Assembly (NCBI GenBank): GCA_008632985.1
Contig: QPGO01000167.1
Coordinates: 62,001 to 126,000 of the forward strand
Length of the DNA stretch: 64,000 nt
Direction of reading: 5' to 3'
Origin: Psammoneis japonica
Lineage: Eukaryota
In this document: in pieces, positions 18,157 to 64,000 of the stretch
Position numbering within the stretch: position 1 is the stretch's first letter
Layout: the number at the start of each line of letters is the position of its first letter
The notes under the pieces: generated by a model
The model's input: only the letters and a program-made list of their open reading frames with translations
Databases searched by the model: none
What the model was told of the DNA's origin: nothing
Made by a program: the position numbers and the translations under genes

Positions 18157-18162
18157 GACGAG

Positions 18163-21877: not shown

Positions 21878-22252
21878 TGTCAGCCTGTCTGTGCCTGTCG
21901 TGTGATGGACAGACTGGATGCGGATGATGGCCAGACCATTTAGATGGACGAGCAGATCTCTCTGAGATCTGCTTCTCACTTTCTCATCTACCAGCACTCA
22001 TGTTGTCACAGTCCTGGTGCTTTGGGGAGTCTTTCACACCTCTGTCACTGTCGACCTTCTTCGGCACTCTGTCAGGTTGTGGCCATGTGCTGTGCCACAG
22101 ACCTCTGCGCCAAGCTTTCTGTCTCGATTCATTTGTTTTGTGAGCCGATCGAGCGAGCCTCATCGTCTGATCCAACAACTTTTTGTCTCGCTTTCCCGGC
22201 ATTTTTCACGACCGTAGAAACACACCAGATTTCTGCGCGTGCATGACCAAAA

Positions 22253-24366: not shown

Positions 24367-27300
24367 CCTTGAAAGAGGGACTAACCGTCTCGTCATCTGC
24401 CGCTGCAGTGCCTCTTTCCTCACAGATTGATGTGGATGCCACCCCTTCCACCTCCACGAAGACATCTTTTGACACCAACACGTTGCCCGACGATGACCCT
24501 GCTCCTCAAGAAGCCTCCGTTGATGCTGCTCATGTTCCGGATCCTTTGGAACAGGGGAGGGAAGACCCAGAAACACCGGTTTTTGAGGAACATGTTGATC
24601 TCACCTGTGGTGATGTGGCTGTTGAAGACGGTTTTGCTGCTGTCAATTCTGTTCGTGTTGCTCCGATCGATCCACACCAGGCAAATCACTCACCTGAGCC
24701 GGAACTGCTGCGATCCACTTGTTCTGTCAATGGGGTAAACTTTGCTCCGAATGAACGTTGTGCTCAGTTGGATGCAGGTGCCGATGTTGCGTGTGCAGGC
24801 GAGCGTGACCTCCTCCATCGCTGCCAAGACTTCACTCCATCCCATCCCTGTCCCCTTGCCGTCAACCTGGCCCTTGGCCACCAAGCTGTCCCAGTTGGAT
24901 TCGGCTGTCTTCGCATCCCTGCAGAGAACTCTGATGGCTGTGTTGAGGTCCGTGCATGCCACCACCCACAGATCCAATCTACGTTGGTTGATGAGTGACT
25001 CCTCCTTCGTCAAAATGGTTCTCGTCACACAGATTGCAATGTCGATTGCATTCTCAAGTTCCATGATCTCGGCACCTGCAAGTTTGTTGCACGACACCGA
25101 TTGCGCAAGAGTCAGGATGTTGTCATTCATGGAAAATTGATCAACGGAAAATGTTTCACTCACCCTCTCATTCTCCCGGAATCTAACGACGAACTGGATG
25201 CATCTGTCGAGCGCCTCAAGACTGCTGATCCTTCTTTTGCCGATGAGTGTGAAGCAGTCTCTGCGCACATGATTGAGACTTGTCGCACCCACCAACATGA
25301 AGCTCTTCGTGATGAACGCAAGTTGATCCCCCGTGTCTGTCAAGACATTCCTTTCGAGAAGCATGCTGAGAAGAACATTCCTGTCCAGTCTCTCAAGGCT
25401 GACACGGAACGTCTTTTATGGCATCAGCGACTTGGTCATCCGAGTGATCACTGCCTTTGTCATGCCCATGAACATGTTGATGGCGTCCCCAAGTTTGCCC
25501 ACGGAACTTCTCCTCTCAACACTTGTCCCACATGCACATGAGCCAAGCAGACGAAGGAACCTGCCGGTCCGAACACTGCTCTTGCTGCCACCCAACCATG
25601 CCAAGGCCTTGCGATTGATTTTTCCTTCTCTGGCCTGCGCTCCAAGAACTCGGAGCACACCAAGGACTGTGTTGGATTGAATGGCGAGACTTGTTGGATT
25701 GCTGTTTATGATCATAAAACGAAGCGTCTCCATGGTGCGACTTGTGTCTCCAAGGCAACCCCTTTGAATTGGATTCGCCACTTTCTGGAAGAGCACTCAC
25801 CAAAATGTCCAGACAAACATGCATTTGTGGATCAAGGAGGTGAATCACATCAGAACCCAGAAGTTGCCGACTCTTCGAGGATGACTTTCATTGTGCAATT
25901 CGTCCTGCGGGAAAAGATGCTTCAAATCAGAGTGGCCCAGTGGAATGCAGTCATTTGTCTGTTGCCAATGCCATCCGGGCGATGCCAATCGGTGCCGATT
26001 TGCCCATCAAATTCTGGCCCCATGCTTTTCATCATTTCATTCGAATCAACAACGCTTTGCCATCCCGCGGACAACCTGCTGCTCCGATTGCTCTCGCTGC
26101 TGGTCGGAAGGATGATTTCAAGAACATTCGTGCGTTTGGTTGTCGAGTGTGGGTGCGTGCGTCGAATCACCGCCCAGCGAAATTTCGGTCTGTCTCTCGC
26201 AAGGGAACATTCTCAGGCTGTCTTCCGGACACTGCCAAGAACATTCTTTGGTGTGACACTGAGACATCGCGTGTCAAGCTTGCCAAGCACATTCGCTGCG
26301 ATGAGGGCATGAATGATCTTCCCCACGACTCTCTTCCGCCGAATGTGGTTCACTTGGAACGCACTCAAGATGGCAAGGCTTTGCCTGCCAAGACTGAAGA
26401 AACCACGATGGATGAGCTCCACTTTCATGGGAATCCCTTTGCCAAGACCATCAAGCATGTGATGAAGGGACCATTTGCTGATCCCACATTTGGACTTTCC
26501 TTGGCTGCGGACAATCTCTGTCGGCGAGTGTTTGTCTCTGACACCAAGCGTGGTTCTCCTGCTGCGCGTCTTTTCTCCTCTTCGAAGGCCACCCGTGACA
26601 AGATCAAGGGTGTGTGCATCGCATCGATTGATGATCATCCTGTGTCACGGCAGAGGATGCCATCAAACGTTTTCAGCAAGTCTGTGATTCTGGCAAGACT
26701 CATTTTGAAATTGAATTCGCGCCGGAACGTCGCCTGGACTCTCAAGCCCTACAACGTGCTCTGATGGAACACAACACACATGCACCGAGTCCTGATCCTG
26801 ATGATGAGCATGTTCCGGAAATCACCAACGCCGATGTACGTGCTGTTGCTGCCATCCGCCTGCCCGACATTGATTTCTCCGAAATGGATGATGACGATGT
26901 CCCTCCACCATTCTTTGTTGATTGTGACAATGGTGTGGTCAATGTCTGTGCTGTCTCATCTCACGCTGTTGCTCCAGAGGAACAAGCCTTGGGTGCTTTC
27001 ACCCGCCATTGCCTCAAGAAGTTGGACACGTGGCCTGAATGGCATGCAGGTGAATTCAAACAACTTGACCAGTTCCATGAGTTGGGGATGTTTGGTGCAC
27101 CGATTAAACGACCCAAGGATGCTGTCGCACTTCGTCCACATTGGCAATGTGACCTCAAGCATGATGGCACATGGCACTCTCGACAGTGCTGTGATGGATC
27201 TCCCCGTGCTGCGTCGACACTACATCGACTCTGCTCGACGCACTCATCCTGTGTTGAGCAGCCTGTCCAATGCATGTTTTTTGCCCTTGCTGCGACCATG

Positions 27301-28667
27301 AGCCATCCTGTCTTTGGCAGGGATGCTCGTGATGCCTGTGCACACTCTCCACGACCGTCACACCCCGTGTGTGTTGCCACAGACAAGGCATGTGCAACCT
27401 GGTGCAAGGCTCGGTTTGGTGTTGACTTGGACAGGAGCATGGCACTCCCGATGCAACATGCACTTCAAGGACACCCAGAAGCCGGCGTGCTCTGGGAGAT
27501 GCACATCAACGGCATTTTGTCTGATGTGAATCTGCTTTTTCGCAACACTGCTCATGACAAATGCACCCACTCTGCTGCTTTTGAAGGACACAAGATCTTG
27601 CTCCTCCGTCAGGTTGATGATTTCTCTCTCGCTTGTCCTGAAGAGTCCACTGTGATCAAGATCTGTGACAAGATTGGCAAAGCTCTCCAATTGGAATCGG
27701 AAACCTCTCCGCCGTTCAAGCATCTTGGCATGATTGACGAATTCAATGGTGCAGACATTCATCAATGCAATGACTCCATTGGCATTGCTGTTCACAGCTG
27801 TGCAGATCGGGTTTGTGCCTCGCATGGTTGGTCGACACCGACGGACGAGGAACTTGACGATGACTGCAAGGCTGCGCCACTGCCTGTTGACTCTGTTCGC
27901 GAACTGTGTGATGCCATTGGCCCAGCTGAAGGAACCCCGGAGCATGCGGAACTGCAACAAGCTGCTGGTTTCGGCCACCGAACTCTTCTTGGCGAATTGT
28001 TGCATGCGTGCGTTGTCTGTCGACTGGACACTGGGTGTGCTGTCACTGCTCTATCCAAGTTCTCGACCTGTCCTGCTGTGGTTCACTGTGACGCGCTCAA
28101 AGGAATGTGCAAGTGCCTTCGACGCACTGGACATTGGGAGTTGAACTGCAGGAAGCCCACCCGAGACTCCAAACTGCCCACCTGCCCCTTCGAACGTCTC
28201 ACTCCGGACCCGACCTTACCGTCGTTCCCTTGTCCTGCGTGTGATCATCAACTCGTTGCTTTCTTGGATGCTGCTTGTGGCAATGACCTCCGCAACCATC
28301 ATTCTACGACTGGCTGTGCTTGCATGCCAGCTGGTGCTGCTGTGTCTTTTCAGTGCAAGACCCAATCGGTGGCCGCTGCGAGCTCTACGGAAGCTGAATT
28401 TTGTGCTGCTGGAACTGCTGCCAAGCATGTCCCATGCCTTCGTCACGTTCTACAAGACCCAGGCTTCCCTCAGACGGAGCCCACCCGACTGAGCGATCCC
28501 GTCACATTGAGACTCAGTTTTTTGTGATCCAAGAATGGAAGGAAGCGGGCAAGATTGTCGCGAGACATGTTCCTGGCATTGTCAACCCTGGCGATGACCT
28601 TGCCAAGGCCTTTGGCTGGGTGCCACACGCTCGCCACGCTCGACGCATGATGGGACACCACTGTTGA
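24363..28667 (+). pseudogene. Copia 1 pol
   Basis: QLDAGA protease, LWHQRLGH..C..C, VDQGGE integrase, ALQGHPEAG and RQVDDF in RT, SSTEAEF, RSRHIETQFF, NPGDDLAK RNase H. Confidence 0.9.
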
Positions 28668-29084
28668 TGTTTTTTTCCGCGGTGGCCTCCCTGCTGCGCA
28701 TTGCCCTCTTGTTTGATGGTGCATTGGGCATGGACACTTCTCGTGTCCTGTGTCTGGTCTCTCTATTTTTTCCTCACATCATCCCCATTCTTTGGTTTGA
28801 TCTGCGCTGTTCTCTGTGTTGAGACATTGCAGATCAGGGGAGGGTGTCAGCCCATCTGTGCCTGTCGCATGATGGACAGACTGGATGCGGATGATGGCTG
28901 GACCATTTGGATAGACGAGCAGATCTCTCTGAGATCTGCTTCTCACTTTCTCATCTGCTGGCACTCGTGTTGTCACAGTCCTGGCACTTCAGGGAGTCTT
29001 TCACACCTCTGTCACTGTCGACCTTCGGCATTCTGTCAAAAACCACAATTGTGAAGCATGGGGTCGGCTGTCGGTGCTTGGCCC

Positions 29085-41459: not shown

Positions 41460-42610
41460 TCTAATGCTGAAGTGGCACACTGTAAAAAAGTGCCCCCGGA
41501 TGGAAAGAGGTTGCAACGGCCGGTGGCAGTGGAGAGTTTTGGGGGAGCGAGAATGTGGTGTCTTGAGATTTCATGAAGTTGCCGTGCAACTGCAATGCTG
41601 CTTCCAAGGTTGATGGAAATGTGCACCTGGGGCAGTGGTTGTGGAAAATGTGTGTTGTGCACCAGCCAGGTCAGATGCACTGAATGTTGCCAGACATGAT
41701 GCACTCAACAACAATGTGAGAAAGCAGCGTCGGCACACACAGGCCTGTTCCAGCTCCAGGTGCTCCGCGCGGGTTCGATTCCCATCATTTGGAAAATTTG
41801 TGCATTCAGCGCAATTAACTTTTTCCAAATTCGTTTTTTGCCAAATCGAAGGGCAGGTGTACACTTTGCATGTATTTTTGGGTGTACACTCACCTTTCGA
41901 TTTTCGAAACGATCAAAATTGAAGGAGTCAATTGCGCTAAACTGCGCAGAAAATCGGCCTCTCGAGTGATGAAAAGCAGAGCACCTGGAGCTGGAACAGG
42001 CCCACACCACAGTGCCTGACTTGATGCTTGGCCAGCCATTGGCAAGGAATGGTGCTGCCAATGGCCCAAAGTGATTTTGGCAGCCACACCTGGCTGCATG
42101 TGCACATTCATGTCAGCAAATGGCAGTGTTAAAGCAGCCCACCTCTGAATCACATAAACCCATTGTTTGGTGCAGCAAAGCACCTTGTTGTGAACAAGAA
42201 AAAAGTGGCTCTCTTAAAGTGACCATCAGAACCTGCCTTCTTGAGCAGCTCTGGCACTGTTGTCACTCTTTCAGCCCCAGCCATGACAGAGAGCCTTCAA
42301 CTTGCAGAGCTCACCAAATGAAAAGGAAAAAGTGACTTCTGGGTTTGTGGCAGCACCAGACCCAGCTCTTCAAGTCTGGTCTGCTCCAGATCTGCAATTT
42401 CAACAAAACCTTTGTGTGGCAATGCAAACCCAGACCCCCCTCCAGTGTCATTGTGTCTCCATTGATGGACAAGGCTGTGTTTCCTGTTGGGACTGCTGAT
42501 TGCCTTCTGCCATGGCTGGTGGCACAGAAGTCAAAAAGAAAGAGCACGTTGAGCTGTCATGAGTGTGATGGGGAAAGTGTGTCACTTTCGTGTTGCACCC
42601 AACAATGGAC
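41460..42610. repeat. TpA-depleted block D between the tandem duplicates
   Basis: TA largely absent; contains a ~260-bp imperfect palindrome at 41742-42002. Confidence 0.65.
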
Positions 42611-42619
42611 ACAATGGCC

Positions 42620-43135
42620 AATGATTCTTTTGTTCTTTGTGTGAGCAAATGAATTGTGATTGTCCTTGAAGCATGTTGACTGTTGTGGTTTTCTGAGACA
42701 CACGGTCTTCTCGCAAATCGCAAGAAACGAGCTGTTCTTCTGTTTTCAGTGCTGGTCCCAGAGAAATCAGACCACCAATGCCAATGTGTGGGGAACACCA
42801 GTCAAGGCCATTTACTTTCCTTTTGCTTGTTTGGGTCTGAATGTCATCATGGGCAACCCTTGCTTGGACATGCTCTTCGCGGAATGGTGATTGCGCACGT
42901 GTTTTACTTTTTGGTGGACGTTCTTCCTGCGGTTCAAGGAAAGACAATTTTGCACACTCCACGCTTTTTGATTGATTTCTTTGGAGTGGGAGAATACACG
43001 GCACCTCCGCCTCCGGTCAATCCCGCATTTCAGCCGAACCGTGGTGGCATACATCAGGCCGGTGGTCAACAGAAACAGCCACGGGGTGGTGGACACAACT
43101 GGGGTGGAGGAGGACAACGGCTTGGGACACAATGA
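42620..43135 (+). pseudogene. 5'-truncated derlin duplicate
   Basis: Aligns to 38625-39121; lacks exon 1 and most of exon 2; frameshift ~42875; first ~270 bp TA-mutated. Confidence 0.9.
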
Positions 43136-46270: not shown

Positions 46271-46466
46271 CAGTGATCATTCTTCCCTTCATCACATCAC
46301 ACGCCGTGAACAGTCATTGTCTTCGCGCGTGCTCACTTTTCGAGTGATTGGGCCGATGCCCAACTTCTGGGACCTGTTCTCCATTTGCAGAATTCATTGT
46401 CCAGAACAGAGAGCCCTGTCTCCAAGAAAGGCATGCACAGCACATGTGTGCAGAGGAGATGCTCGC

Positions 46467-49400
46467 TGACAGGATTTGAACAGGATTTGGGTGCGCACGA
46501 AATGTCGCGCGCTGTTTGGTTTGCCGCGCACAGTTTTGTGTGCTTTAGTTCCGTGCGTTCGCGCGCGATGCAGTTTGCTTTCGAGCCACAAGGCTCACAA
46601 GAACAATGACAGCAGCCCGATTGTGCCGACTTGCACGTCTTTCGGCTCCTGCAACGGTCTCTGAGTGGAGACTCATCTGCTGTTTAGACAGCAGCAAGGA
46701 GTTGTTGTTTGAATTCTTGCCATTTGCCTTCAATTTCTGTCAGGTTGACAGTCTTGCTCATTGTCAACCCATTGAGCAACCGCCGTCGTCGTCGTTGATT
46801 TGCCGACGATGCCATTTCAATTCTGCGTGGATCTCCGCACATGTTCTGCATGCATCAGCAAGTCCACGCGCATTCAATGCCAGGCACTGGCAGGAAGTTA
46901 ACGTCACCATCAAGTCTCCTTGCCGCTGGACATCTGGATTGATTGTGCTGCCTTTCATCGCTGAAGACATGCACTCAACGGTCATGTCCAAGTCTGTCCT
47001 TGATCCTCATCCCTTGATGTGCCCATTCATCGGTTAACGGTCAAGAACCCTGCATGTTCAAGGATCTTCATCGCTGAAGACATGCACATGCACACATCTT
47101 CACTGCCAAGAACTTGCACCCACTCTTCGGACTGCAGTTTTGCCGCCACTCTACAAGCACACCGAGTCCATTGCACCTGATCTGCCCAAGACTGCTGGTG
47201 CTCTGCAATTCTGCTGGGTCCACAAGGACAACTGTGAGAGCAAGCAGCCGTGATTGCAGCCCACGTTGGGGCGAGGGTGTTTTCCCACATTTGTTCGTTC
47301 GTCCACAGTGCCTGACGCCTGCGTCAACTGGCCAGCCTGATCGGGAAATCCAACCGACATAAAATGAGAACGGTTCGGGGGTCTTGTCCACCTCTGGTCA
47401 GCTTGCCTGCAGGGGCTTGCAACCCGCTGCTCCGCTCGCAAGCAACCCAAAGCGCCACTGGCTGCGGGCTCGGATGTGCCAGCACAACTCTACGGACCGG
47501 ATGGGAAGTTCAGCACTTGACAACGAACGGGACAGCACAGCCCGGCGACTTCTGATTTCAAGGCAGTTCAAGATTTCAAGTCAAGTCCATTTCAAGTCAA
47601 GTCTGTTCTCACCCAAGTTTCAAGTCCACCCTTGCTTCCCAACAAGAATTGCTTGTCCTGACACCACTTTTGTCTGCCATGGTTCTCACTCGTCAGCAAC
47701 AAACCGATGGTTTCGAGCACGTTGTTGGAACCGTGCTTGCCCAAGGTGCTGGGAGCCCTCTTCGTTTGGCTTTGGCCCAAGACGGCACGGACTCGCATCA
47801 AGAACTGTTCACGTTCATGCCGTCCCAAATCGACTTGCTTGAGCACGACAACAGCACCAATGTGATCCCTTTGCCCCGCGGTTATGAGAACATGTCAGCA
47901 GCTCTGGTCAGTCTGTGCATTGTCAAAGCACATGAAGGTCTTGACGTTGCCAATGACTCCTCATTGTTCACGCATGACGAGTTCCTTGCCTGCCGCCTCA
48001 GCCCCGACTGCATGTCTTCTGTGTCCGTCGGCAGCTCACCCCTCGCACCTCCGCATGTCACCAACCCGACCAAGGCACGCGACCCGGTGCGAGACTTCAA
48101 GCGAGGCATCAAGCGTGACCCCACCGCTTTCACGGCTCTCAAATCTGACAAGCAGTGGCACACTTGGCACACCTCACTTGTGGCACAAGCCCGTGCCCAA
48201 GACATCGAGTGCATTCTAGACTCGTCGTACAAACCGACCAGCCCCGAAGACAAACTGCTCTTTGCTGAACAGCAAAAGCACATGTTCGCCATCTTCGAAT
48301 GCATCCTTCTCACCGACAAGGGCAAGGCTCTCATTCGCGAAAATGTGGGGTCTTCTGATGCCCAGACCGTCTGCCGCGCCTTGTCTGAGCATGCGCTCAC
48401 CTCCACCCGCGCATCTGTCGAGTCCTCCACCTTGCTCACGTGCCTTGCCACCGCACGTCTTGGTGATGGCACTTGGAAAGGTCTGACCCACGGGTTCATC
48501 CTTCATTGGCAAGATCAGTTGCACAAGTGCGAGGCACTCATCCCGGCCAGCGACCACTTCTCTGAAGGACAGAAGCGCGTCATGCTCGAGAATGCCGCAC
48601 ACCCTGTCGAGGAACTCCGTGCTGTCAAGAACCAAGCTGATCAGCATCACACGCAGAGTGGCAAGAGCCTCACACACGATCAATGCTGTGGCTTGCTCCT
48701 CTCCGTGGTGGCTCAATGCGACAGTGTGTTTCAACCCAAGACAACACCTCGAGCTCCCCGACGTGCCATGTGCGCACACAACGTCCACTCCGAGGAACCG
48801 TCCGACGATGTGTTCTGCAACATTGACAGCGACATTGACGTCCTTCAGGCCAATGCTGCCCACACCCGTGGTCCCAGCCTCACCGGTGACCAATGGAAAC
48901 GTCTCCCTCCCGACCACCAACGGATTTGGGATTCGTTGCCCCATTCCTCCAAGGCGATCATCCTCGAGCATTCTCGTCTGCCTCCCCGCGACCTGCGAGC
49001 CAGCAACTGCCATGAGTCCATTACGGCCAACCTTCATGACCAATGCCTTGGGAGTGACGGTGATGTCAACTTGTCCAACACGACTCCTGCTGACTCTGGT
49101 GACTCCGCTCCAAATGTGGGTGCCACTTCAGATGATCCCATCCTGGCGCACCTCACCAAGCGCAAGCCACTGCCACCCGGTGATCTGCAATGTCTGTTGT
49201 CTCCTAACCAAGCCCCCAACGCCAGTCGACCAGGGCCATCCGCCGCTCCCTCTACCCCGCCAGCTCCTGCCGATGACATGGAACTTAACGGCCGCACTTG
49301 CCGCCGCATTGACAACCACAATGTCATTCACTCTGCCTCTGCTCATCGCTCCACACGCGCTGGTGCTCCAGTCGATCGTGGGGCCAACGGCGGCATTGCT

Positions 49401-52400
49401 GGTGACGACGTTCGCGTCATTGCATGCACCTCTTGCCAAGTCGACGTTCAGGGCATTGACGACCATCAATTGGTGGACATCCCCATTGTCACCGCTGGTG
49501 CCATCATCGAGACCCAGCATGGTCCCGTCATCGCCATCCTCCATCAGCACGCATGCACGGGCAAGGGCAAGACCATTCATTCCTGCGGCCAGCTCGAATG
49601 GCACAAACAGGATGTCAACGATTGCTCTGTCAAGGTGCCCAATGGCTTGCAACGCATTGCCACTCCTGATGGCTGTGTCATCCCCATTGACATCAAGGGC
49701 GGCCTGCCTTGTGTTGCCATGCGACCTCACACTGACGCCGAATGGGACACCCTGCCCCATGTCATCCTCACCGGTGATGACACATGGGATCCTCCCGTCC
49801 TCGATCACTCTGTCACTGACAACGACCAGTGGTGCGACGCGATCTCTGACCCACAGGACGATCCCACTGCCAACCCATTTGACGAATGCGGCAACTGTCG
49901 TCATCGTGTTGTTGTCAACGAGACCATCATGTCCGCTTCCTTGTCTGCCGATCACGCATCCGCCCTCGATGATCACCTCATTCCGAACGACGACGTGTTC
50001 TGCGAGTGTCATCTGCACGCGATTGACCCCAAGGACGACGACGTTCCGCCCCCGGAGCGCACTGTGCAGCCCAAGGACCCCCCCTTCAAGTCTCTTTGGC
50101 CTTGCTTTGGCTTCCCACCTGCCGATGCGGTCCGTCATGCTTTTGACTGCACCACGCAGTGCGTCCGCATGCCCGCCGGTGCACACCTTAGGAAGGCCTG
50201 CAAATCACCCAACCCCGCCCTTAATGTGCACCGCCACAACGAGCCTGTCACCACTGACACCGTTTGTGCCGACACCCCGGCCGTCGACTCTGGTTGCACC
50301 AGCGCCCAACTGTTTGTTGGCACCGAGTCTACCGTCACTGACGTCTGCAGCACCAAGACGGACAAAGAGTTTGTCAACACACTCGAGGATCAGATCCGTG
50401 AGCGTGGTGCCCCATCCAAACTCATCAGCGACCGTGCTCAAGTTGAGATCAGCAACAAGGTGCTCGGGATTCTACGAGCCCTCTTCATCTCCAGCTGGCA
50501 AAGTGAGCCTCACCAGCAACACCAAAACTTTGCCGAGCGTCGACACCAGACCGTGAAGCGCATGGCGAACACTGTCATGGATCGTTTCGGAGACCACGAA
50601 TGGAAAGTGAACGGCAATCCTGAGCTCACTAAGTTCGTCTGCTCTGTCAACAACGACGAATGCGAGGAAGTCCTTGCCTGCAACGACATCATGAATCACA
50701 TTGAGCAAGAAGACGAAGACACTGCTGTTTGGAAATTTCGACGCATCGTGTCACACGAAGGACCTCTGAAGCCTCATGACCCAACCTGGAAAGGCTCAAG
50801 CTACAACATCATGCTTGAATGGGAAAGTGGGGAGATCACGTCCGAGCCTCTTGCCATCATCGCCAAGGACGACCCCGTCACCTGCACCATCCATGCACGA
50901 GAGAACGGACTTCTCGACACTGATGGCTGGAAGCGGTTCTGCACCATCGCGAGGCGCCAGAAGAATCCATTTTGCATGGCCAACCAAGCCAAGCTTCACT
51001 CCTTCCGCACTGCACCTCGCCACAAGTGCGGATGCGAAGTTCCCCGGAACTGCAAACACACCATGTCACCAGACGAACGCAACGGCAACCGCAAATGGGG
51101 AGACGCAACTAATCTCAAGATGGACCAACTCGGGGAATGCGAAGTCTTCCATGACTGCGGGCCCTTCGAGTCTTCCACTCCTCCTGTGGGACACAAGAAG
51201 ATCCGAGTGCACCTGGTGCACGACGTGAAACACGACGGTCGCCACAAGGCATGACTCGTAGCCGATGGGCACCTCACGGATGTGCCCATCGACAGTGTCT
51301 GCTCTGGAGCAGTCTCCCTCCGTGGCCTTCTGCTGATGATTTTCCTGGCCGAACTCAACGAGTTGGAGACATGGGCCACCGACATTGGCAATGCCTGCCT
51401 TGAAGCCACCACCAAGGAGAAGCTCTACATTGCAGCCGGACCCAAATTTGGCAAACTCAAAGGACACATCCTTGTCATCCACAAAGCCCTGTGTGGACTG
51501 CGCAGCTCCGGTCTCCGCTGGCACGAGTGCTTCGCCGACTGCCTGCGAGCTGAAGGCTTCTTCCCCTGCCGCGCCGAACCCGACATTTGGATGCGCAGGA
51601 ACGACGACCACTGTGAACACATTGCCGTTCATGTGGATGACCTCGCCATTGCTGTGAAGGACCCTCAATCTTTCGTCGATGCTCTCACGGAAAAGTGCAA
51701 GTTCAAGCTCAAGGGCACGGGACCCATTGAGTTCCATCTGGGTTGCGACTTTTCCCGGGATCCCGATGGCCTCACCGGATGCTCTGTCATGGGAATGCTC
51801 CACTTCCTCAACAAATTCCCGGCTGATTGGTTCTCTAAGAAGCAAGCCACTGTGGAGACTGTGACCTGCGGGTCTGAATTTGTTGCCGCAAGGACTTGTG
51901 TCGAGCAGATCATCGACCTGCGCATCACCCTGCGCTGCCTTGGCGTCCCTGTCCGTAATGTCAGTTGCATGTTCGGTGACAACAAGTCGGTTGTAGACAG
52001 TGCCACCATCCCGCACTCCAAGTTACACAAGCGACACACCGCACTGTCGTTCCACCGTGTGCGTGAGGCAATTGCCTCTGGTCACCTTGAGCTCCACTTC
52101 ATCGAAGGCTCCCGCAACCCTGCTGACATTCTCAGCAAGCATTGGGGTCACTCCCAAATCTGGGACCTTCTCCGCCCCCTCATGTTCTGGAACTTCATTC
52201 CATCCGAAGTCAAATCTGTTTCTGTGGCTCCTCAAGCAAACTGGGGAGTGACAGGATTTGGACAGGATTCAGGTGCGCGCAAAATGTCGCGCGCTGTTTA
52301 GTTTGCCGCGCACAGTTTTGTGTGCTTTAGTTCCACGCGTTCGCGCGCGATGTAGTTTGCTTTCGAGCCACAAGGCTCACAAGAACAACAACAGCAGCCC

Positions 52401-52524
52401 GATTGTGCTGACTTGCACGTCTTTCGGCTCCTGTGATGGTCTCTGAGCGGAGACTCATCTGCTGTTTAGACAGCAGCAAGGAGTTGTTGTTTGAATTCTT
52501 GCCATTTGCCTTCAATTTCTGTCA
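46467..52524 (+). mobile_element. Ty1/Copia LTR retrotransposon 2 (diatom CoDi-like), internally deleted
   Basis: 276-bp LTRs 46467-46742 and 52249-52524 (TGACAG..CTGTCA), TSD CTCGC/CTTGC, PPT ggggag. Confidence 0.95.
47679..52248 (+). pseudogene. Copia 2 gag-pol
   Basis: FKRGIKRD, VDRGANGG protease, LISDRAQVE and SEPHQQHQNFAERR integrase, KHDGRHKA*LVA, HVDD (expected YVDD), CGSEFVAAR, GDNKSVV, NPADILSK; deletions near 50590 and 51770. Confidence 0.92.
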
Positions 52525-54050
52525 CTTGCCTTTCTTCAGCTCTGCACCTGCTCAGAGGCAGAGACAATGGCACTTTTCTCCCGCGATTTTTTTTGTTCTC
52601 TTTGTGGCAACTCGCTGAACAAATGTCAAACCAAGATGGCCAACAATCAGACAAAAAGAGTTTGATTGCATTTCAGCAATCACCAGGTTCTGCAGCTGGT
52701 GGAAGAAAAACAAACTTCTTGCTTTTCAAGCACATGTGTGGAGGTGTTGTGGGGAAGCAACCCACCTCCGAGCCACACAAAAACTCAGTTGGTGCAGGAG
52801 CAAGCCCAAGCATGCCACTGAGCATCTAATTTGTGATGCTCTTGAAGTGCTCTTCATCTGAGTCCACCTTCTTGAGATGCTCCAAGTTTGTGACTCTCAG
52901 CACCACCAGCTGTGATTTTGTCAAAATGGCAAAAATGCCAGGGGCAAGCATCTCCTGCACCCCCCTTCGACTCAGCAGCTCACCTGCAAATCCAAGAGCT
53001 TGCAGCTTGCTGAGCAACCACCAAGAGAAAAACAGCTTTTGGGTTTAGAGCAGCAGCACCTGGGGGTTCTTCAAGAAATGATGTTGATTTTTGTCCACAA
53101 CAGGGCAACGACACAAGCAGGCTGGCCAGCTTGGATTGCTCCCAGTTCCTCCAAGCAGTGCTCCATCAAGCAGTTGCTCTCCAGTTTGGCACCAAGCAAT
53201 GACTCTCCCAGAACATTTTGCCTTGGTCAGCATCATTTAAATCAAACCCCCAACAAACCAAAATGTTTGCAATGCAAATGATTTTAATTTGCAGGTTTTG
53301 TGGGGACAGAGGGTGTGCACCCTCACATGGGGAAATTGGGTGACTGTTTCACAGTGAAACATGTTTTCCTCATGGGAGGGAGGGGGGTCAGACCCCACAG
53401 CATGAAATTGTTCACATCTGCAATGGTTGACATGTCATCACCACACGCACAACTGGTGCAAGGCATTGTGCAGCACAGAGTTTTTACGTGCAAAAGGGAA
53501 AAACATCACTGTGAAAAAGGTGGCCTCAATCACTGCAACATGTGCTTTGACGTTGTGCACAACTTTCACATTTTGGAAATGACTCAAATGCACCAGGCAC
53601 CAGATCAGATGGCGACATTGCGCGTCACACCCAACATCTGACAAAACTGACAATGACCAATGATGTGCATCTTGGCTTGCTGCACATGTGGCACTGAGTC
53701 ATCCCACAAGTTTCTCTGCAGTGGCCGCGCAATCATGCCCTGCTTGATTGTAGCAGACGTTGGCTCACATGTTCACACGTGTGTGTGCACACACAGCAAA
53801 TGTGCCAGCCAGCCTGAGGTGTGCCATTGCATCATCTGCACAGGCACTGCCCATTCCAGGCTGCCAAGAAAGGTTGAAAATGCAGCTGAGACAACCAAGA
53901 ATTGGACAAAGAAGACAATTGCAGTGGGGCAATCAACAGGTTCTGTCATTGTGCAAAACTTGTTTCAGCTTGACCCCCCTCCATTTATTGGCGACACCCA
54001 AAAAGTGGTGGGTGGATGCACGTACATGCGCATTGCATGTCAGCACACAT
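52525..54050. repeat. TpA-depleted flank right of Copia 2 (unidentified relics)
   Basis: TA largely absent up to ~54050; no identifiable ORF. Confidence 0.55.
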
Positions 54051-58744: not shown

Positions 58745-59520
58745 GAGAGCAGTCGAGAGAGAGAGAGAGCAGTCGAGGTTCCAGCATCCATGCCAGAGCA
58801 ATTTGAAAATAGTGCACAATGTGACTGGGATAAAATCAGCCCAGATCCCACTCGATTCTTGCAATGTGCCCACCCCTCAAGCGTGCTGGCACTTTTCACT
58901 TTTTTCTGGCTGAGGGGATGCTCCCATGATGGTCTCAAGAACAGGTTTCAAGCAGCACCCCAGCAGCATTTCAACTTGCAAGCAAGCTTCTTGAACTCAA
59001 GCAAAATCTATTTTTCCAAAAAATGTTCTGCAAGACACGACTCTCCTGCTGGCAGTGGAGCCAGCGCAATGCTTGTGTTGGTGGCAGCTGAAGAATGAAG
59101 TTTTTGGGCAAAGTTCTTGGCATTTTTGAAGTTTGCAATCCATGATGGAAAGGGCACCATTCAAATCCTTCCCAGTGATCCAAGATGTGCTGCTTTGCCT
59201 TGTTTTGCCAAGCAGGGTTGTTTGTCTCATTCAGGTTGCCAATCACAAGCCTGACATCCAGCACAACCATTGGAACAAGTGGTTCTTCAGTGGAAACATC
59301 AAAGCACTTGCCTCAATTCTTGATGACCTTGTTGCATTGTTCACATCATTGGCATTGTCCTGCATGACTTGTCAAAGACTGACTCTGTTGAACACAAAAC
59401 CACTGAGGACTCCAGTGAAGCATTGGCATCAATGCTTGGGAAAGACAACGCGAAAGAAGTGTGCACATGCCCAGTTGTTTTCAATTCCAGTTGGCTTCGC
59501 CGAGTTGGGTCTGGAAAAGA
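58745..59520. repeat. TpA-depleted block F
   Basis: Begins after ctagagtagagagag/(GA)n tract; TA nearly absent. Confidence 0.6.
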
Positions 59521-59625
59521 GCGCTGAGTAGAGTCATCTTGCCGGCAGAGACTCTTCCTGCAGATCTCAACAAAGTTGACTGCCGGAGAGAAGAAGAACT
59601 CATTTAACGCAAATGCGATTTTACT

Positions 59626-60877: not shown

Positions 60878-62869
60878 GGCACGTTCCCACCCCGATAATT
60901 TCGGCCGTAAAATAAATATAATTTCGTTCTACACAAAATTCCTGTAGAAACTCTCGTACAAGAAAAATCGCACGTCTGTTTTCCATCCGCCAATTTACAG
61001 CCGAAATTATCAGCAAATTACGACGACAGGTGTCGGTCGTCGTAAATTCTCTCCCGTAAATATAATTTTCACGGTAAATTCGGCGTTTTGGGAGCTCGAA
61101 CGTGCCACGTCACACAAGCCGCCCATTTTTTTTCTTTCTCCGCTCCGATCGCACAACAACCATGATGGCTGCTGCCATGAACGGACCCGTTCATACCCCC
61201 ACTCGGGCAAAAAATCGAACCACTCAGTGGCTCGCAACTTGCGCAGCGTAAAACTCGCAACTGACACAATGAAGTGGCACCCACACAGATGCAACCTTTT
61301 GACAGAGGCAAAAAGCCATTGTTGTCAATGCATTGTGTTGTTAGCGGCCACTCGTGTGTGGAGCTCGGTTGCCGTCAAATCACCGTCATGGTCATTGTCG
61401 GTGATTTTCTCACCCCGCAGAAACAACCGCAGGGCAGCACCAGAAAAAAATGTCGAACCATTGAGCGGTTCGCCACGTAGACAAGCACCGGGAGCCCCGC
61501 AGAATTGGTGAACCATGAGGTGGTTCGGGAGGACGAGCGTAGAAATGTGCGTGGCAATTTGCACCAGAGGGTCGAATGCAAAATTGAACCAGAAAAATGA
61601 GGCTCACGATGAACAAGACGGCAGCAGTGCGGAGAAGTTTAAGAACATGGCAAACCACTGAAACAAAGCACACATGTTGTCAAACAGATGTTGCTGCATC
61701 GACTGATGCAATGTTGTTGCAGACATCTCATTGTCTTTTACACTTTCACCCATCGTCTGTCGGTTCATTTTTGGCTTGCCGCGAGCCACTTGATGGTTCG
61801 GGGCAGGAATCGCGCATTCGTGATTTCGCGCGGCAAACCACTGCATGGTTCGCGCTGGGAGTGGGGACACACGAACGACCGTCCTGTCTACGAAGGCAAG
61901 AATGTAGAGACAGGTCAATGAGACTACGCTCGATGCGATCAAGCTGTCACAATTTTGATTTTTTGTTGTTGTTGTGGCTTGTGACGACAGTGTCGACCAA
62001 CGGCATTTTTGATGTCTTCGTTTCTCTTGTTCAGATTTCATTGGGATTCTTCACAAACCATGCGTCTGCAGACTTGAGGCTGAATCCTCGCAGCAACACA
62101 TTATGATCTGATGTCACATTGAGGTGGTTCTTTGGTGTGTGCTCAAGGTCACTTGATTGACGGCCAAGAGTCAAGAGTGCAACATTTTGGTCACTTCAAC
62201 AACAACAGGAAGGCTTGTTGTGACAGAATGTGACTGTGAAGAAGGCTGTGTGCTCTTGTTTCATCAATCTTGTCGGAAGTTAGGACAATGATGCCGGTGG
62301 GGGTCAACGTTTTGTGCAACATCGTCGGCATTGTGCCTCACAGTGCCTCACTCTGCTGTCTGGAGGCCTTCTCTGCGACTTGCTCTTTGTCACTTTGCTC
62401 TTTGTTGCTTTGCTCTTTGAAATGGATTTGGGCCAATGGCAAACCGCAAGAGTTGACAATGGTGCCTTTTAGTGCCTCACATTCTGTAGAAATTATGTCC
62501 AGCAGTTTTGCGTGCTGCAGTCTCACTGCGCGCCATTGTTTCGTGCATCTTTCTGATCTCTCTGCAACTCTTGCCAGTGGATTGAATGTTGGGCACATTT
62601 CTTCTGACCTTCACTGGTGTCACCCTGAGTCTTGGGTTGCCGCAGAGCAATCGCAAAATGGACAACGATTGTCACTGACAATGTTGTGGTGTCTCTCTAG
62701 CTGGCAGCTCTAGCCAGTGCTGTGGCGTGTGGCGTCCTCACCGAGCTCGACATGAGATTTTGATCTTTTTTGCCGATCGAATTCGTTCCCAGCCTGATGC
62801 CCGTAAATGCGCAAATTTGGCCAAATTGCATTCATTTTACGGCCGAAATTGTCAGGGTGGGAACGTGCC
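60878..62869. mobile_element. ~2-kb TIR element, possibly PIF/Harbinger-like, no intact transposase
   Basis: 47-bp inverted termini ggcacgttcccacccYgaYaatttcggccgtaaaat..; TCA on both flanks as 3-bp TSD candidate. Confidence 0.65.
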
Positions 62870-64000
62870 TCAGTGTCTCTTGTCACCCCCCGAAACAATC
62901 CGAGCAAGTCATGCAAATTGGACGCTTCTCAGAATGGCTGTGCCTCATTGTCTGCACAAACAAAGAGCTGAGACAAAACATTCGATGCTTCAATGACTGA
63001 CAATGTTGCACCACTTGACAATCTTGGGGAGAATGATGTCCCTGCTGCCTGCTCTTGGGCTTCGTTTGGATGTTCAAGAACACCGGCAACCTCTCTGACC
63101 AAAACTCTTGACTGCGGTGCTTGCCGCTCATGAATGGTCGGGTGCAGTGGACAGAGAGTGCGCAATGTTGCACAGTCTGTCGTTGTCAGAGCAACATGCT
63201 TTGTCTTGTGTTTGTTGTCTTTGTGCTCAACTTTGTTGCCCAACTCTTGACAAACTTGCAAAGTTGAAGACGCAAGAACTCGGCAGCATTTTCAACCACA
63301 GCGATGATCCAACAAGTCCTGGCAGGCCAGCTTTTTTCCTCTTGATTTTTGTCATTGGTGAAGCCAACTCTCACAGCAATGTCTGCAAGTCAAGTTTCTT
63401 GATCTGCCAGCAATCCATTTCTCACATCCTTGTTCAGGGCACTCAGAGAATTGGGCCTCATTTTTCCTGCCCACAAAGCCATGAGGTGAGCAACATTGCC
63501 CACTGAAGTGCCAGTTCAAATTTTCAAGATGAGCTGTTCAAGAACATTTTGTTTGTGGCCTGTCCAGATGCTCATGTCAAGCAAGCTGGGGATGAATCAA
63601 GGCACATGCTGGGCCCACTTCTCAAGCTTTGCAATGGCCACTTTCAATGAGGTTGTAGAGAAAAAGAAGGCCAGCGGCGCACTGTTGGCCATTTTGAGGG
63701 AGTTGAGTTGAAAAAAGGTGTTTCTGATGATGGTCCAGAGTTGATGAGGATTGATGGTTGTTGGGTGAGGTCAGCCTGTGGTGTTTCACAAGCTGAGTCC
63801 ACTGTCTTCAGGCACAAGGAAAATGAGACAATGGGAGGTCTGTTCCATGTGGCTCCAAGGAGAGAGACGTGTGTTGTCAACTTTCCTGTCAAGAACTCCA
63901 AAAGTCAGTCAGAAAATGCTGATGACCCAGTTCCCAGTTTTGTGCAACAGCGCAACAACTGCGCACAAGCTCCAGGGGGGGGGGGGCAGCTGAGAGACCC
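62870..64000. repeat. TpA-depleted block G (continues from inside the TIR element to the window end)
   Basis: TA nearly absent; no identifiable ORF. Confidence 0.55.

What the first reader, a model, noticed from the sequence alone, without database searches (positions are those of the whole stretch)
46467..52524. Possible sequence-context preference (5'-TAY) that could fingerprint the enzyme
TA sites surviving in mutated blocks are often YTAR (ctttagtt and gtttagac in both Copia 2 LTRs; ttttaag, ttctaga, ccttagg, cactaag). In the derlin copy YTAY sites went to TG and an RTAR site to CA, which fits a target A followed by a pyrimidine. Exceptions exist in the LTR pairs, so this is a tendency judged by eye. 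Established: TadA edits UACG in tRNA and engineered TadA DNA editors favour TA. Inference: a TadA/ADAT-like deaminase acting on DNA, or deamination of a modified adenine, is a candidate cause.
Basis: inference. Interest (0 to 1): 0.7.

Follow-up and report, generated by a model that had tools for sequence, protein, structure and literature searches.

The report
Flank-dependent TpA hypermutation of retrotransposons
A dead Copia retrotransposon, and half of the surrounding 64 kb, has had about nine in ten of its TA steps rewritten to TG or CA, and both how fast and in which direction a TA is rewritten depend on the neighbouring bases, which gives a measurable signature of the still unknown enzyme behind this genome defence.

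Summary
Observation confirmed and sharpened. 46467-52524 is a 6.06-kb Ty1/Copia element whose TpA o/e is about 0.1; 31 TA survive: 15 YTAR, 15 YTAY/RTAR, 1 RTAY. Across all ten TA-depleted blocks (33.2 kb, 194 survivors), TA survival is about 29% for YTAR, 14% for YTAY/RTAR and 2.4% for RTAY (chi2 75, p 4e-17; block-stratified OR 8.1). A four-rate model gives the dose on an adenine in 5'-TA by its 3' neighbour as T 2.3 > C 1.1 > G 0.7 > A 0.5, so "TAY" is a fair but coarse summary. Direction follows the same rule: polarised one-sided sites went the predicted way 44:13. The survivor-derived rates predict TG at 52 of 87 conserved Tyr codons; 57 were observed. Tyr codons became Cys or His at 89 of 110 conserved positions, so this is mutation, not selection. 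TpA-only A:T>G:C hypermutation of foreign DNA is already described in Bigelowiella natans (2026 preprint), but its main text has no flank analysis. The enzyme cannot be named. The signature fits TadA-derived "YAC" only partly. It does not fit ADAR2 (UAG) or amphioxus ADAT2 (GAA). It equally fits attack on the paired thymine (RTA). No genome was available for a deaminase search.

The parts
46462..46466 (+). left target-site duplication CTCGC
   Evidence: the right copy reads CTTGC (a CpG>TpG difference)
46467..46742 (+). 5' LTR of the Copia element (TG...CA ends)
   Evidence: self-BLAST pair 46467-46742 / 52249-52524, 94.2% over 276 bp; alignment
47556..51254 (+). polyprotein reading frame, first part (gag-PR-INT), ending in an in-frame TGA at 51252-51254
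   Evidence: homologous to 1,850-1,900-aa Copia polyproteins at 36-50% identity; tblastn covers 47679-52289
51255..52301 (+). polyprotein, second part in the same frame; RVT_2 reverse transcriptase domain at about 51288-51782
   Evidence: Pfam PF07727 E 2.8e-15
52249..52524 (+). 3' LTR
52525..52529 (+). right target-site duplication CTTGC
46401..54000 (.). TA-depleted block covering the element plus 1.5 kb of right flank: 38 TA, o/e 0.10; TG o/e 1.62, CA 1.51, CG 0.72
   Evidence: The left edge coincides with the LTR start. 52600-53263 has single-copy read depth.
42625..42885 (+). mutated head of the partial derlin/sulfatase duplicate (polarised TA>TG/CA and CG>TG/CA changes)
   Evidence: The source copy 38630-38875 keeps the TA. 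DER1 Pfam hits at 38169-39121.
41501..43000 (.). TA- and CpG-depleted block (TA o/e 0.11, CG 0.39): a repeat plus its single-copy flank
   Evidence: a contig covers 41985-42918 at depth 60 with 2 differences
10801..14500 (.). TA-depleted block: left part of the Gypsy element 11850-18156 and its upstream flank
16601..29000 (.). TA-depleted block: right part of the Gypsy element, unidentified repeats, and a second Copia element 21878-29038
3001..4900 (.). TA- and CpG-depleted block (TA o/e 0.02, CG 0.17), no recognisable domain
7101..8700 (.). TA- and CpG-depleted block (TA o/e 0.05, CG 0.26)
58801..59600 (.). TA- and CpG-depleted block (TA o/e 0.07, CG 0.25)
61201..64000 (.). TA-depleted block running off the window (TA o/e 0.10, CG 0.60)

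Best explanation
SHOWN. The stretch is a dead Ty1/Copia LTR retrotransposon. Like 33 kb of the 64-kb window, it has been hit in place by a TpA-specific A:T>G:C transition process that turns TA into TG or CA. The two strands of each TA step are hit independently. The rate on a given adenine depends on its 3' neighbour (T 2.3, C 1.1, G 0.7, A 0.5 in cumulative dose units). This explains three things: RTAY is almost extinct, YTAR survives best, and YTAY goes mostly to TG while RTAR goes mostly to CA. The process also reaches 0.7-1.5 kb into single-copy flanks. In the older-looking blocks it is accompanied by CpG decay, which suggests it is aimed at a silenced chromatin domain rather than at sequence homology.

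INFERRED. The agent is an enzyme that deaminates adenine to hypoxanthine in 5'-TA-3' DNA, one strand at a time, preferring an adenine flanked by pyrimidines on both sides (T-A-T/C). It would be the same kind of activity proposed for Bigelowiella natans. The deaminase family is not identified.
For: TA o/e is 0.02-0.15 in ten sharply bounded blocks, with TG/CA o/e 1.5-2.0. Only TA, CG and CA/TG differ from background among all dinucleotides; TC/GA is 1.07 in both.

Polarity:
- In the duplicate, TA sites of the unmutated copy are TG or CA in the other copy.
- Against an unmutated metagenomic relative (L001, TA o/e 0.65), 38 of 55 aligned TA are TG or CA in the window and 3 are still TA.
- At 110 conserved-Tyr codons of three LTR elements, 59 are TG, 30 CA, 10 TA and 11 other.
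- The Copia polyprotein is 0.3% Tyr, 3.9% Cys and 5.2% His. The first 60 of its listed homologues have 2.9-4.4%, 0.5-1.4% and 2.7-4.2%. No homologue among all 360 fetched has under 2.4% Tyr.

Post-insertion, independent hits: the three LTR pairs carry 20 TG-versus-CA double differences.

Flank effect on rate: survival is 29%, 14% and 2.4% for YTAR, YTAY/RTAR and RTAY. CMH OR is 8.1. The four-rate fit beats one rate with chi2 128, p 1e-27, and a TE-only ancestral proxy gives the same order.

Flank effect on direction:
- YTAY Tyr codons split TG 35 : CA 12 (p 0.001), while RTAY split 24:18.
- All polarised one-sided sites split 44:13 (p 5e-5).
- The rule-conform product exceeds the other in 10 of 10 blocks.

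Cross-check: rates fitted on survivors predict TG at 52.1 +/- 4.4 of 87 Tyr sites, and 57 were observed. Log-likelihood is -54.7 with no free parameter, against -56.0 for a fitted constant share.

Reality of the sequence: contigs of a public run reproduce the mutated single-copy stretches 41985-42918 (2 differences), 52500-53290 and 53347-54219 (0 differences).

Precedent: de novo TpA>TpG/CpA mutations were observed in B. natans mutation-accumulation lines (bioRxiv 10.64898/2026.01.13.699255; Results and Discussion read).
Against: - Sequence alone cannot tell whether the adenine or the paired thymine is the chemically altered base. Every statistic here is symmetric under that swap.
- The 3' T preference matches no adenine deaminase whose context I could document: YAC for early ABEs, GAA for BjADAT2, UAG for ADAR2.
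- The additive two-strand model leaves residuals. CTAC/GTAG has 49 survivors against 33 fitted, and CTAG has 7 against 14, so at least one further position matters.
- Base-level rates rest on proxies for the ancestral sequence (the unmutated half of the window, or 5.5 kb of unmutated TE sequence).
- The difference in direction between YTAY and RTAY is not significant on its own (Fisher p 0.12).
- At third-codon/first-codon TA sites, the comparison with L001 gave CA 15: TG 2 regardless of flanks. I attribute this to saturation of synonymous sites, but purifying selection during part of the process is not excluded.
- No deaminase gene could be sought.
Confidence: 0.5

Rival explanations
1. The thymine of TpA is the target. 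A TET/JBP-type dioxygenase or other T-modifying enzyme marks T in TpA within silenced repeats. The modified base (5hmU, 5fU or a derivative) then mispairs with G or is mis-repaired, giving T>C. In this reading the flank rule is 'T preceded by A >> G > C >= T'.
For: In dinoflagellates, TET/JBP homologues make 5hmU. The 5hmU is enriched in repeats and silences transposons, and older work found thymine replaced preferentially in TA and TC (PMC11572971, abstract and passages). All statistics here are strand-symmetric, so they fit equally well. In part of the blocks the process co-localises with CpG decay, another change at a pyrimidine in a YpR step.
Against: TC/GA is untouched (rho 1.07 in both mutated and background sequence), unlike the TA+TC pattern reported for dinoflagellate 5hmU. 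That 5hmU-type bases are mutagenic enough to erase 90% of TA is recalled, not documented here. No TET/JBP gene could be sought.
Confidence: 0.22
2. The flank dependence is not an enzyme fingerprint. It reflects DNA mechanics or repair. A purine between two pyrimidines (Y-A-Y, alternating RYRY context) stacks poorly and flips out more easily, or the lesion is repaired less well there. On this view any TA-directed agent would give the same hierarchy.
For: The favoured class RTAY is the alternating purine-pyrimidine context, and the protected class YTAR is a YY-RR context. ATAT has 0 survivors against 115 sites in background, while TTAA survives best at 30 against 74. The preference matches no documented deaminase motif.
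Against: The hierarchy distinguishes T from C and G from A at +1 (four-rate versus R/Y model, p 9e-10), which is more than a purine/pyrimidine stacking rule predicts. The strict requirement for T at -1 already shows base-specific recognition.
Confidence: 0.15
3. RNA-level A-to-I editing (ADAR- or ADAT-like) of retrotransposon transcripts, fixed by reverse transcription.
For: Editing enzymes favour U before the edited A (preprint Discussion). The three best-studied targets here are retrotransposons.
Against: Single-copy flanks and part of a duplicated host gene are mutated. The LTRs of one element differ by independent TG/CA outcomes, so the hits came after insertion. Both strands are hit about equally at RTAY (24:18). 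Neighbouring outcomes show no strand coordination (runs test P 0.48-0.76).
Confidence: 0.02
4. Selection against TA or UpA (for example nuclease avoidance or codon usage) in an active element lineage, not mutation pressure.
For: At codon position 3/1, TA sites of the outgroup correspond to the synonymous CA in the window 15:2.
Against: 89 of 110 conserved Tyr codons became Cys or His codons, which destroys the proteins. Non-coding LTRs, unidentified repeats and a host-gene duplicate are affected as well.
Confidence: 0.02
5. Sequencing or assembly artefact, such as miscalls at modified bases or a chimeric consensus of repeats.
For: The window is a scaffold with a 379-N gap. An unmutated 0.9-kb island inside a mutated Gypsy element could be an assembly mosaic. 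The public run that confirms the sequence may be the assembly's own data.
Against: Contigs at about 57x word depth reproduce the mutated single-copy stretches with 0-2 differences. The pattern respects element boundaries, the TSD and codon logic. The same signature was seen as real de novo mutations in Illumina-sequenced B. natans lines.
Confidence: 0.03

Closest known systems
TpA hypermutation of integrated viral DNA in Bigelowiella natans (Mettrop et al., bioRxiv 10.64898/2026.01.13.699255; Results and Discussion read)
   Same: Almost exclusively A:T>G:C, only at TpA, giving TpG and CpA on the two strands. Confined to foreign-derived, silent regions. Genome-wide TpA-poor, CpA+TpG-rich clusters enriched in reverse-transcriptase and DDE domains.
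   Different: There it was caught as de novo mutations at partial depletion (rho TpA 0.45 in the NCLDV region). Here it is seen only as an end state near saturation (o/e 0.02-0.15) in LTR retrotransposons, unidentified repeats and their single-copy flanks. The main text of the preprint contains no flank analysis and no mention of CpG ('context', 'flanking', 'trinucleotide' and 'CpG' each occur 0 times). Its supplementary mutation table could not be read. The organism here is unnamed. The nearest named relatives of its elements are diatom proteins at 38-49% identity, which is weak evidence for a diatom.
Repeat-induced point mutation (RIP) of ascomycete fungi
   Same: A dinucleotide-specific transition storm that kills repeated elements, leaks into neighbouring unique sequence and leaves diagnostic dinucleotide indices.
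   Different: RIP makes C:G>T:A, mainly at CpA, and so creates TpA (abstract of PMC2621366 in the listing). Here the direction is the reverse and TpA is destroyed. Dependence on duplication and on a sexual phase is untested here.
TadA / ADAT2-3 tRNA adenosine deaminases and TadA-derived DNA base editors
   Same: Adenine deamination with a pyrimidine (T/U) 5' of the target. Early ABE variants strongly prefer YAC (PMC7056309, passage). TadA's natural UACG site is recalled, not checked.
   Different: Here 3' T is about twice as good as 3' C. Amphioxus ADAT2, the natural enzyme shown to edit DNA, prefers GAA for A and TCG for C (PMC10354150, passages). In eukaryotic tRNA substrates the base after A34 is, from memory, never U. 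No such gene could be looked for.
ADAR hyper-editing of repeat-derived dsRNA
   Same: A>G changes clustered in repeats, with a 5' U favoured.
   Different: ADAR2's hot spot is UAG (PMC10661471, passage), whereas 3' G is a poor context here. ADARs act on RNA and are, from memory, confined to animals. The changes here were made in DNA after insertion and also affect single-copy flanks.
5-hydroxymethyluracil made by TET/JBP homologues in dinoflagellates
   Same: A modification of T that is enriched in repeats, silences transposons and historically prefers T in TpA (PMC11572971).
   Different: It is an epigenetic mark and is not known to erase TpA. It also prefers TpC, which is unchanged here.
APOBEC3-type hypermutation of retroelements (recalled)
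   Same: An enzyme-driven, context-specific transition storm that kills retroelements.
   Different: APOBEC3 deaminates cytosine on minus-strand cDNA, so it is strand-asymmetric and acts before integration. Here an A:T pair is changed, on both strands, after integration.

Membership tests
TpA-targeted A:T>G:C hypermutation of foreign/repeated DNA (B. natans type) | changes are almost only A:T>G:C transitions | tested here: met
   In the mutated head of the duplicate, all 11 changes at TA sites are TA>TG or TA>CA, and 6 further differences are at CpG. 38 of 55 outgroup TA are TG or CA, and none is CG.
TpA-targeted A:T>G:C hypermutation of foreign/repeated DNA (B. natans type) | restricted to the TpA dinucleotide, with products TpG and CpA | tested here: met
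   Strand-pooled rho, mutated versus background: TA 0.10 vs 0.62 and CA/TG 1.60 vs 1.20. All other dinucleotides are within 0.91-1.11 of background, except CG at 0.64.
TpA-targeted A:T>G:C hypermutation of foreign/repeated DNA (B. natans type) | confined to foreign-derived or mobile DNA in sharply bounded regions | tested here: met
   Ten blocks hold three LTR retrotransposons and high-copy repeats (depth 400-160,000 against 57). They also take in up to 1.5 kb of single-copy flank.
TpA-targeted A:T>G:C hypermutation of foreign/repeated DNA (B. natans type) | ongoing de novo mutation at about 1e-7 to 1e-6 per site per generation in some lines | not testable with these tools
   This needs mutation-accumulation or pedigree sequencing. 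The only hint is a set of T>C differences at TA between the window and the run's contigs (41284, 41290, 41413), and these are unpolarised.
Fungal RIP | C:G>T:A at CpA, creating TpA | tested here: not met
   The direction is opposite: TpA is lost and CpA/TpG gained.
TadA/ADAT-type adenine deaminase signature | pyrimidine (T/U) immediately 5' of the target adenine | tested here: met
   Only TA is depleted among NA dinucleotides.
TadA/ADAT-type adenine deaminase signature | C at +1 (UACG in tRNA-Arg, recalled; YAC for early ABEs, PMC7056309) | tested here: inconclusive
   C at +1 is the second-best context (dose 1.13). T is about twice as good (2.30), and G (0.73) is not far below C.
TadA/ADAT-type adenine deaminase signature | an extra CDA-fold (HxE...PCxxC) deaminase gene in the genome | not testable with these tools
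   No whole genome is held. None of the 55 window ORFs scanned against Pfam hit a deaminase family.
ADAR-type dsRNA hyper-editing fixed by retrotransposition | acts on RNA, so only on transcribed or retrotransposed sequence, before integration and on one strand | tested here: not met
   Single-copy flanks and a host-gene duplicate are hit. The LTR pairs carry independent TG/CA outcomes. Both strands are hit (24:18 at RTAY).
TET/JBP thymine hydroxylation as in dinoflagellates | T modified in both TpA and TpC | tested here: not met
   TC/GA rho is 1.07 in both mutated and background sequence. This tests mutation, not the presence of the mark.
Ty1/Copia LTR retrotransposon (the element itself) | paired LTRs with TG..CA ends, 5-bp TSD, and a polyprotein with RVT_2 downstream of integrase | tested here: met
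   The LTRs are 276 bp and 94.2% identical. The TSD is CTCGC/CTTGC. RVT_2 scores E 2.8e-15. Copia polyprotein homologues cover 47679-52289. The element is inactive: one in-frame stop, and 43 of 50 conserved Tyr replaced by Cys or His.

The most novel reading that the evidence does not exclude
A chromatin-targeted DNA-editing defence, in effect a 'reverse RIP', operates in this alga (probably a diatom) as it does in the rhizarian B. natans, and so may be ancient in the SAR supergroup. In this reading an enzyme attacks each strand of TpA steps inside silenced domains with a definable motif (T-A-T > T-A-C > T-A-G > T-A-A). It erases Tyr codons and the TAA and TAG stops, spreads about 1 kb into flanks and works much faster than CpG decay. 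The motif measured here would then serve as the assay read-out for identifying the enzyme, whether a natural double-strand-competent adenine deaminase or a mutagenic thymine modifier.
Probability: 0.35. Interest if true: 0.85.

Novelty: new member of a known kind. Interest (0 to 1): 0.62.

Why it matters
TpA-specific hypermutation of invading DNA has so far been reported once, in a 2026 preprint on one chlorarachniophyte, with no enzyme identified. This window adds several things.
- The same signature appears at near saturation in LTR retrotransposons of another alga.
- The process is quantitative and strand-resolved.
- It yields a four-number flank signature that independent data cross-validate.

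Such a signature is what is needed to compare organisms (is it the same enzyme?), to rank candidate deaminases or T-modifying enzymes by in-vitro preference, and to model how fast an element is inactivated.

There are practical consequences for annotation:
- Hypermutated elements keep long open frames, because TAA and TAG are erased 4.5- to 5.6-fold.
- LTR divergence overestimates insertion age.
- Cys- and His-rich, Tyr-free 'proteins' are a diagnostic of the process.

Tried and rejected
- **Product excess against background at base level.** This was too dependent on the assumed ancestral composition (ATAT loss 251 against ATGT gain 119). I replaced it with purine/pyrimidine-class counts, which transitions cannot change.
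- **Using all TA sites of the outgroup L001 for direction.** Sites spanning codon positions 3/1 gave CA 15: TG 2 whatever the flanks. Synonymous positions are saturated at 67% nucleotide identity, so only conserved Tyr codons were kept for the direction test.
- **Strand-coordinated clusters.** A runs test on Tyr outcomes in three elements found none (P 0.48, 0.76, 0.53).
- **Whether CpG loss follows a TCG rule, as expected for a dual TadA-like deaminase.** It does not. ACG, CCG and TCG are all lost and GCG is not.
- **RNA evidence.** No RNA holder was listed.
- **Organism.** Two Atlas look-ups gave only 'Eukaryota' with mixed algal and plant phyla.
- **Earlier findings of this scan.** Four look-ups found nothing on this genome or phenomenon.
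- **Literature.** Three searches for TpA hypermutation in diatoms or transposons returned only the B. natans preprint as relevant. This covers the held library only.
- **Gaudelli 2017.** Not held under the id I recalled.
- **Tandem repeat at 37.4 kb,** to explain evenly spaced differences: none found.
- **Hypermutated relatives in the protein database.** None of the 360 homologues is Tyr-poor.

Full report
**1. What is at the coordinates**

46467-52524 is a 6,058-bp Ty1/Copia LTR retrotransposon on the + strand.
- It has 276-bp LTRs that are 94.2% identical (46467-46742 and 52249-52524).
- It has a 5-bp target-site duplication, CTCGC/CTTGC.
- Its single polyprotein frame runs 47556-52301, with one in-frame TGA at 51252-51254 and an RVT_2 domain (E 2.8e-15).
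- Its nearest database relatives are 1,850-1,900-aa Copia polyproteins at 36-50% identity. tblastn with 40 of them covers 47679-52289.
- Reads of a public run pile up on it at a summed word depth of 6e4-1.6e5, against about 57 on single-copy flanks. The family is therefore very abundant.

No whole genome is held. The closest named relatives of the window's second Copia element are diatom proteins (Nitzschia inconspicua, Cylindrotheca fusiformis, Fistulifera solaris, Fragilaria crotonensis) at 38-49% identity. Long, nearly intron-free host ORFs also fit a diatom better than B. natans, but that is my inference.

**2. The background phenomenon is real**

Per-kb profiles show blocks where TpA o/e is 0.02-0.15 and TG+CA o/e is 1.5-1.9. 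Segmentation (TA o/e < 0.25 in 400-bp windows) gives ten blocks totalling 33.2 kb with 194 surviving TA.

Among all dinucleotides, only three differ from the unmutated half of the window:

| Dinucleotide | rho, mutated | rho, background |
|---|---|---|
| TA | 0.10 | 0.62 |
| CA/TG | 1.60 | 1.20 |
| CG | 0.64 | 0.99 |

TC/GA is 1.07 in both.

The polarity of the change is shown in three ways.
- **A segmental duplicate.** 38630-41043 and 42625-45043 are 89% identical. The second copy starts inside a mutated block. In its first 260 bp, the TA of the first copy read TG or CA, and CG read TG or CA. The duplicated gene is indeed a derlin (DER1).
- **An unmutated relative.** A metagenomic Copia relative, L001, is 75% identical in protein and has TA o/e 0.65. 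Of 55 aligned TA in L001, the window has TA at 3, TG at 17, CA at 21 and something else at 14.
- **Tyrosine loss.** The polyprotein has 0.3% Tyr, 3.9% Cys and 5.2% His. The first 60 of its listed homologues have 2.9-4.4%, 0.5-1.4% and 2.7-4.2%. In a MAFFT alignment with 40 of the 120 listed homologues, 50 columns have Tyr in at least half of them. There the window has Cys 29, His 14, Tyr 3, Phe 3 and Trp 1.

This is destructive mutation, not selection for TA avoidance.

The three LTR pairs carry 20 sites where one LTR has TG and the other CA. These are independent hits after insertion.

Logan contigs of run X1 reproduce the mutated single-copy stretches 41985-42918 (2 differences), 52500-53290 and 53347-54219 (0 differences). 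A base-calling artefact is therefore unlikely, although that run may be the assembly's own data.

**3. The observation: which TA survive**

In the element, 31 TA remain: 15 YTAR, 10 YTAY, 5 RTAR and 1 RTAY.

Over all blocks (chi2 75.3, 2 df, p 4e-17):

| Flank class | Survivors in blocks | TA in unmutated sequence |
|---|---|---|
| YTAR | 76 | 248 |
| YTAY/RTAR | 107 | 705 |
| RTAY | 11 | 419 |

Every change involved is a transition, so the purine/pyrimidine class of a site and of its flanks cannot change. The number of Y-R steps per flank class is therefore a fixed denominator. The share of these steps that are TA falls as follows:

| Flank class | Background | Mutated | Survival |
|---|---|---|---|
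| YR | 0.145 | 0.042 | 29% |
| YY/RR | 0.179 | 0.025 | 14% |
| RY | 0.223 | 0.005 | 2.4% |

- Unmutated TE sequence (L001, L002 and the Gypsy centre) also has at least as much RTAY as YTAR. The ancestral composition therefore does not explain the bias.
- Trimming 200 bp from the block edges changes nothing.
- A Mantel-Haenszel test across the ten blocks gives OR 8.1 (background 0.59), p 6e-14.

**4. Refinement to single bases**

I modelled each site as two independent adenines, each with a dose that depends on its 3' neighbour.
- With the window background as the ancestral proxy, the fitted doses are A 0.46, G 0.73, C 1.13 and T 2.30.
- With the TE-only proxy the differences are the same: G +0.18, C +0.73 and T +1.71 relative to A.
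- Four rates beat one (chi2 128, p 1e-27) and beat the R/Y model (chi2 42, p 9e-10).

So 'TAY' is right in direction but coarse. TAT is by far the best target and TAA the worst, with TAC and TAG between them. ATAT has 0 survivors (115 sites in background), while TTAA has 30 (74 in background).

The model leaves residuals. CTAC/GTAG has 49 observed against 33 fitted, and 7 of the 10 YTAY survivors in the element are CTAC. At least one more position counts.

If part of the surviving TA are new (made from CA/TG by ordinary C>T), the true preference would be larger than the roughly 3-fold Y/R ratio. In a steady state it would be up to about 8-fold.

**5. Direction**

The rule predicts YTAY>TG, RTAR>CA and either product at RTAY.

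*Duplicate.* YTAY>TG 5 of 5 converted, with one further YTAY surviving; RTAR>CA 1 of 1; RTAY 2 TG and 2 CA; YTAR>TG 1.

*Conserved Tyr codons.* I used three LTR elements, the first 60 of the 120 listed homologues for each, and codons covered by at least 20 homologues with at least 60% Tyr. That gave 110 sites.

| Class | TG | CA | TA | Other |
|---|---|---|---|---|
| YTAY | 35 | 12 | 4 | 5 |
| RTAY | 24 | 18 | 6 | 6 |

YTAY departs from 1:1 (p 0.001) and RTAY does not (p 0.44). The contrast between the two classes alone is not significant (Fisher p 0.12).

*LTR pairs.* At one-sided sites where one LTR keeps TA, taking TA as ancestral, 3 conform and 1 does not.

*Pooled.* All polarised one-sided sites together give 44:13 (p 5e-5).

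*Block composition.* In the YY/RR class the rule-conform product exceeds the other in 10 of 10 blocks (2001:1483, against 1245:1123 in background). If the CpG loss is split evenly between the two products, this corresponds to about 3.7:1.

*By preceding base at Tyr codons.* CA is commonest after A (10 of 18), as expected because the opposite adenine then has a 3' T. After G it is 8 of 24, after C 8 of 35 and after T 4 of 12.

*Cross-validation.* The doses fitted on survivors predict TG at 52.1 +/- 4.4 of 87 Tyr sites, and 57 were observed. Log-likelihood is -54.7 with no free parameter, against -56.0 for a fitted constant share and -60.3 for 1:1. No extra sense/antisense bias is needed. Neighbouring outcomes are not strand-coordinated.

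*Result against the rule.* TA sites of L001 spanning codon positions 3/1 are CA 15: TG 2 in the window, irrespective of flanks. I ascribe this to saturated synonymous sites and the element's C-rich third positions. Selection during an earlier, still active phase is not excluded.

**6. Mechanism**

*Shown.* This is a post-insertion process on DNA. It requires T 5' of the changed A (equivalently, A 3' of the changed T). It hits the two strands independently and is modulated by the next base.

*Shown.* It extends into single-copy sequence next to repeats. The left edge of the block is exactly the 5' LTR, and the right edge lies 1.5 kb beyond the 3' LTR. 52600-53263 and 41985-42918 have single-copy depth.

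*Shown.* The blocks without recognisable genes are also CpG-poor (o/e 0.17-0.39). The LTR elements keep CpG o/e of 0.67-0.85.

*Inferred.* TA conversion is much faster than CpG decay and is aimed at silenced, probably methylated, domains rather than at repeats as such.

*Inferred (about 0.5).* The agent is an adenine deaminase acting on DNA, as proposed for B. natans.

*Equally compatible with every count here (about 0.2).* The agent is an enzyme acting on the thymine of R-T-A. An example would be a TET/JBP-type oxidation like the repeat-associated 5hmU of dinoflagellates, which prefers TA and TC (PMC11572971). However, TC is untouched here.

The flank hierarchy may also partly reflect how easily a purine between two pyrimidines leaves the helix, rather than contacts made by the enzyme.

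**7. Comparison with what is known**

The phenomenon itself is in print as a preprint. In B. natans mutation-accumulation lines, 230 of 231 mutations in two integrated viral regions are A>G or T>C, all at TpA. TpA-poor, CpA+TpG-rich clusters there are enriched in RT and DDE domains, and an ADAT2 homologue is offered as a candidate. Its main text does not analyse flanks or CpG.

Three literature searches found no report for diatoms or for transposons elsewhere, within the held library only.

The documented contexts of adenine deaminases do not match well:
- early TadA-derived editors prefer YAC (PMC7056309);
- amphioxus ADAT2 prefers GAA for A and TCG for C on DNA (PMC10354150);
- the ADAR2 hot spot is UAG (PMC10661471).

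The signature therefore does not yet fingerprint a family. It does give a concrete criterion for testing candidates.

**8. Verdict**

In novelty terms this is a new member of a very recently described kind, with a new quantitative feature.

*Limits:*
- only one 64-kb window was available;
- ancestral states are partly proxied;
- there are 110 Tyr sites and a few dozen other polarised sites;
- no proteome was available.

Noticed in passing
window 14600-15500: An island of about 0.9 kb with TA obs/exp near 1 (21/21, 18/16, 24/20 per 250 bp) sits inside the otherwise TA-depleted Gypsy element 11850-18156 and has sharp edges. It covers the protease/RVT_1 region. It could be a conversion patch from an unmutated copy, a protected tract or an assembly mosaic.
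   Followed up: partly
window 3001-4900, 7101-8700, 18250-20000, 41501-43000, 52525-54000, 58801-59600: Blocks with no recognisable domain are depleted in both TA (o/e 0.02-0.11) and CpG (o/e 0.17-0.39). The three LTR elements keep CpG o/e of 0.67-0.85. The two decays are separable, and TA loss saturates first. CpG loss shows no TCG rule.
   Followed up: partly
window 52525-54000 and 41985-42918: Single-copy sequence (word depth about 57) next to repeats carries the full TA>TG/CA signature. The block at the Copia element starts exactly at the 5' LTR but runs 1.5 kb past the 3' LTR. The right TSD copy has CTTGC where the left has CTCGC.
   Followed up: partly
all mutated blocks: TAA and TAG are 4.5- and 5.6-fold rarer than in unmutated sequence (2.3 and 1.6 against 10.3 and 9.2 per kb, both strands). 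TGA is slightly commoner (22.2 against 18.2). Long ORFs therefore open in all six frames; for example, 161 of the 252 ORFs of 90 or more codons lie mostly in the mutated half. An open frame there is no evidence of a gene.
   Followed up: yes
window 46467-52524: Summed read depth on the Copia element is 6e4-1.6e5 against about 57 on unique sequence, from 11,611 contigs at least 90% alike. Many reads carry loose ends at 50587 and at 51766/51771, which indicates that this copy has internal deletions there.
   Followed up: no
window 41284, 41290, 41413 (also 37426, 37492): The window and the contigs of run X1 differ by T>C exactly at TA steps just outside the 41.5-kb block and in unmutated sequence. 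These may be strain or haplotype polymorphisms from ongoing hypermutation. They are unpolarised and too few to count.
   Followed up: no
L002:1-1257 (metagenome contig): A 64%-identical Copia relative from another sample has CpG o/e 0.19 but normal TA (0.59). L001 has both normal. In other hosts, CpG decay of such elements occurs without TpA hypermutation.
   Followed up: no
window 38630-41043 and 42625-45043: A 2.4-kb tandem segmental duplication (89% identical) carries the 3' half of a derlin gene and a sulfatase/SGSH gene on the opposite strand. Only the first 260 bp or so of the second copy are hypermutated.
   Followed up: partly
window 32260-32638: A scaffold gap of 379 N.
   Followed up: yes
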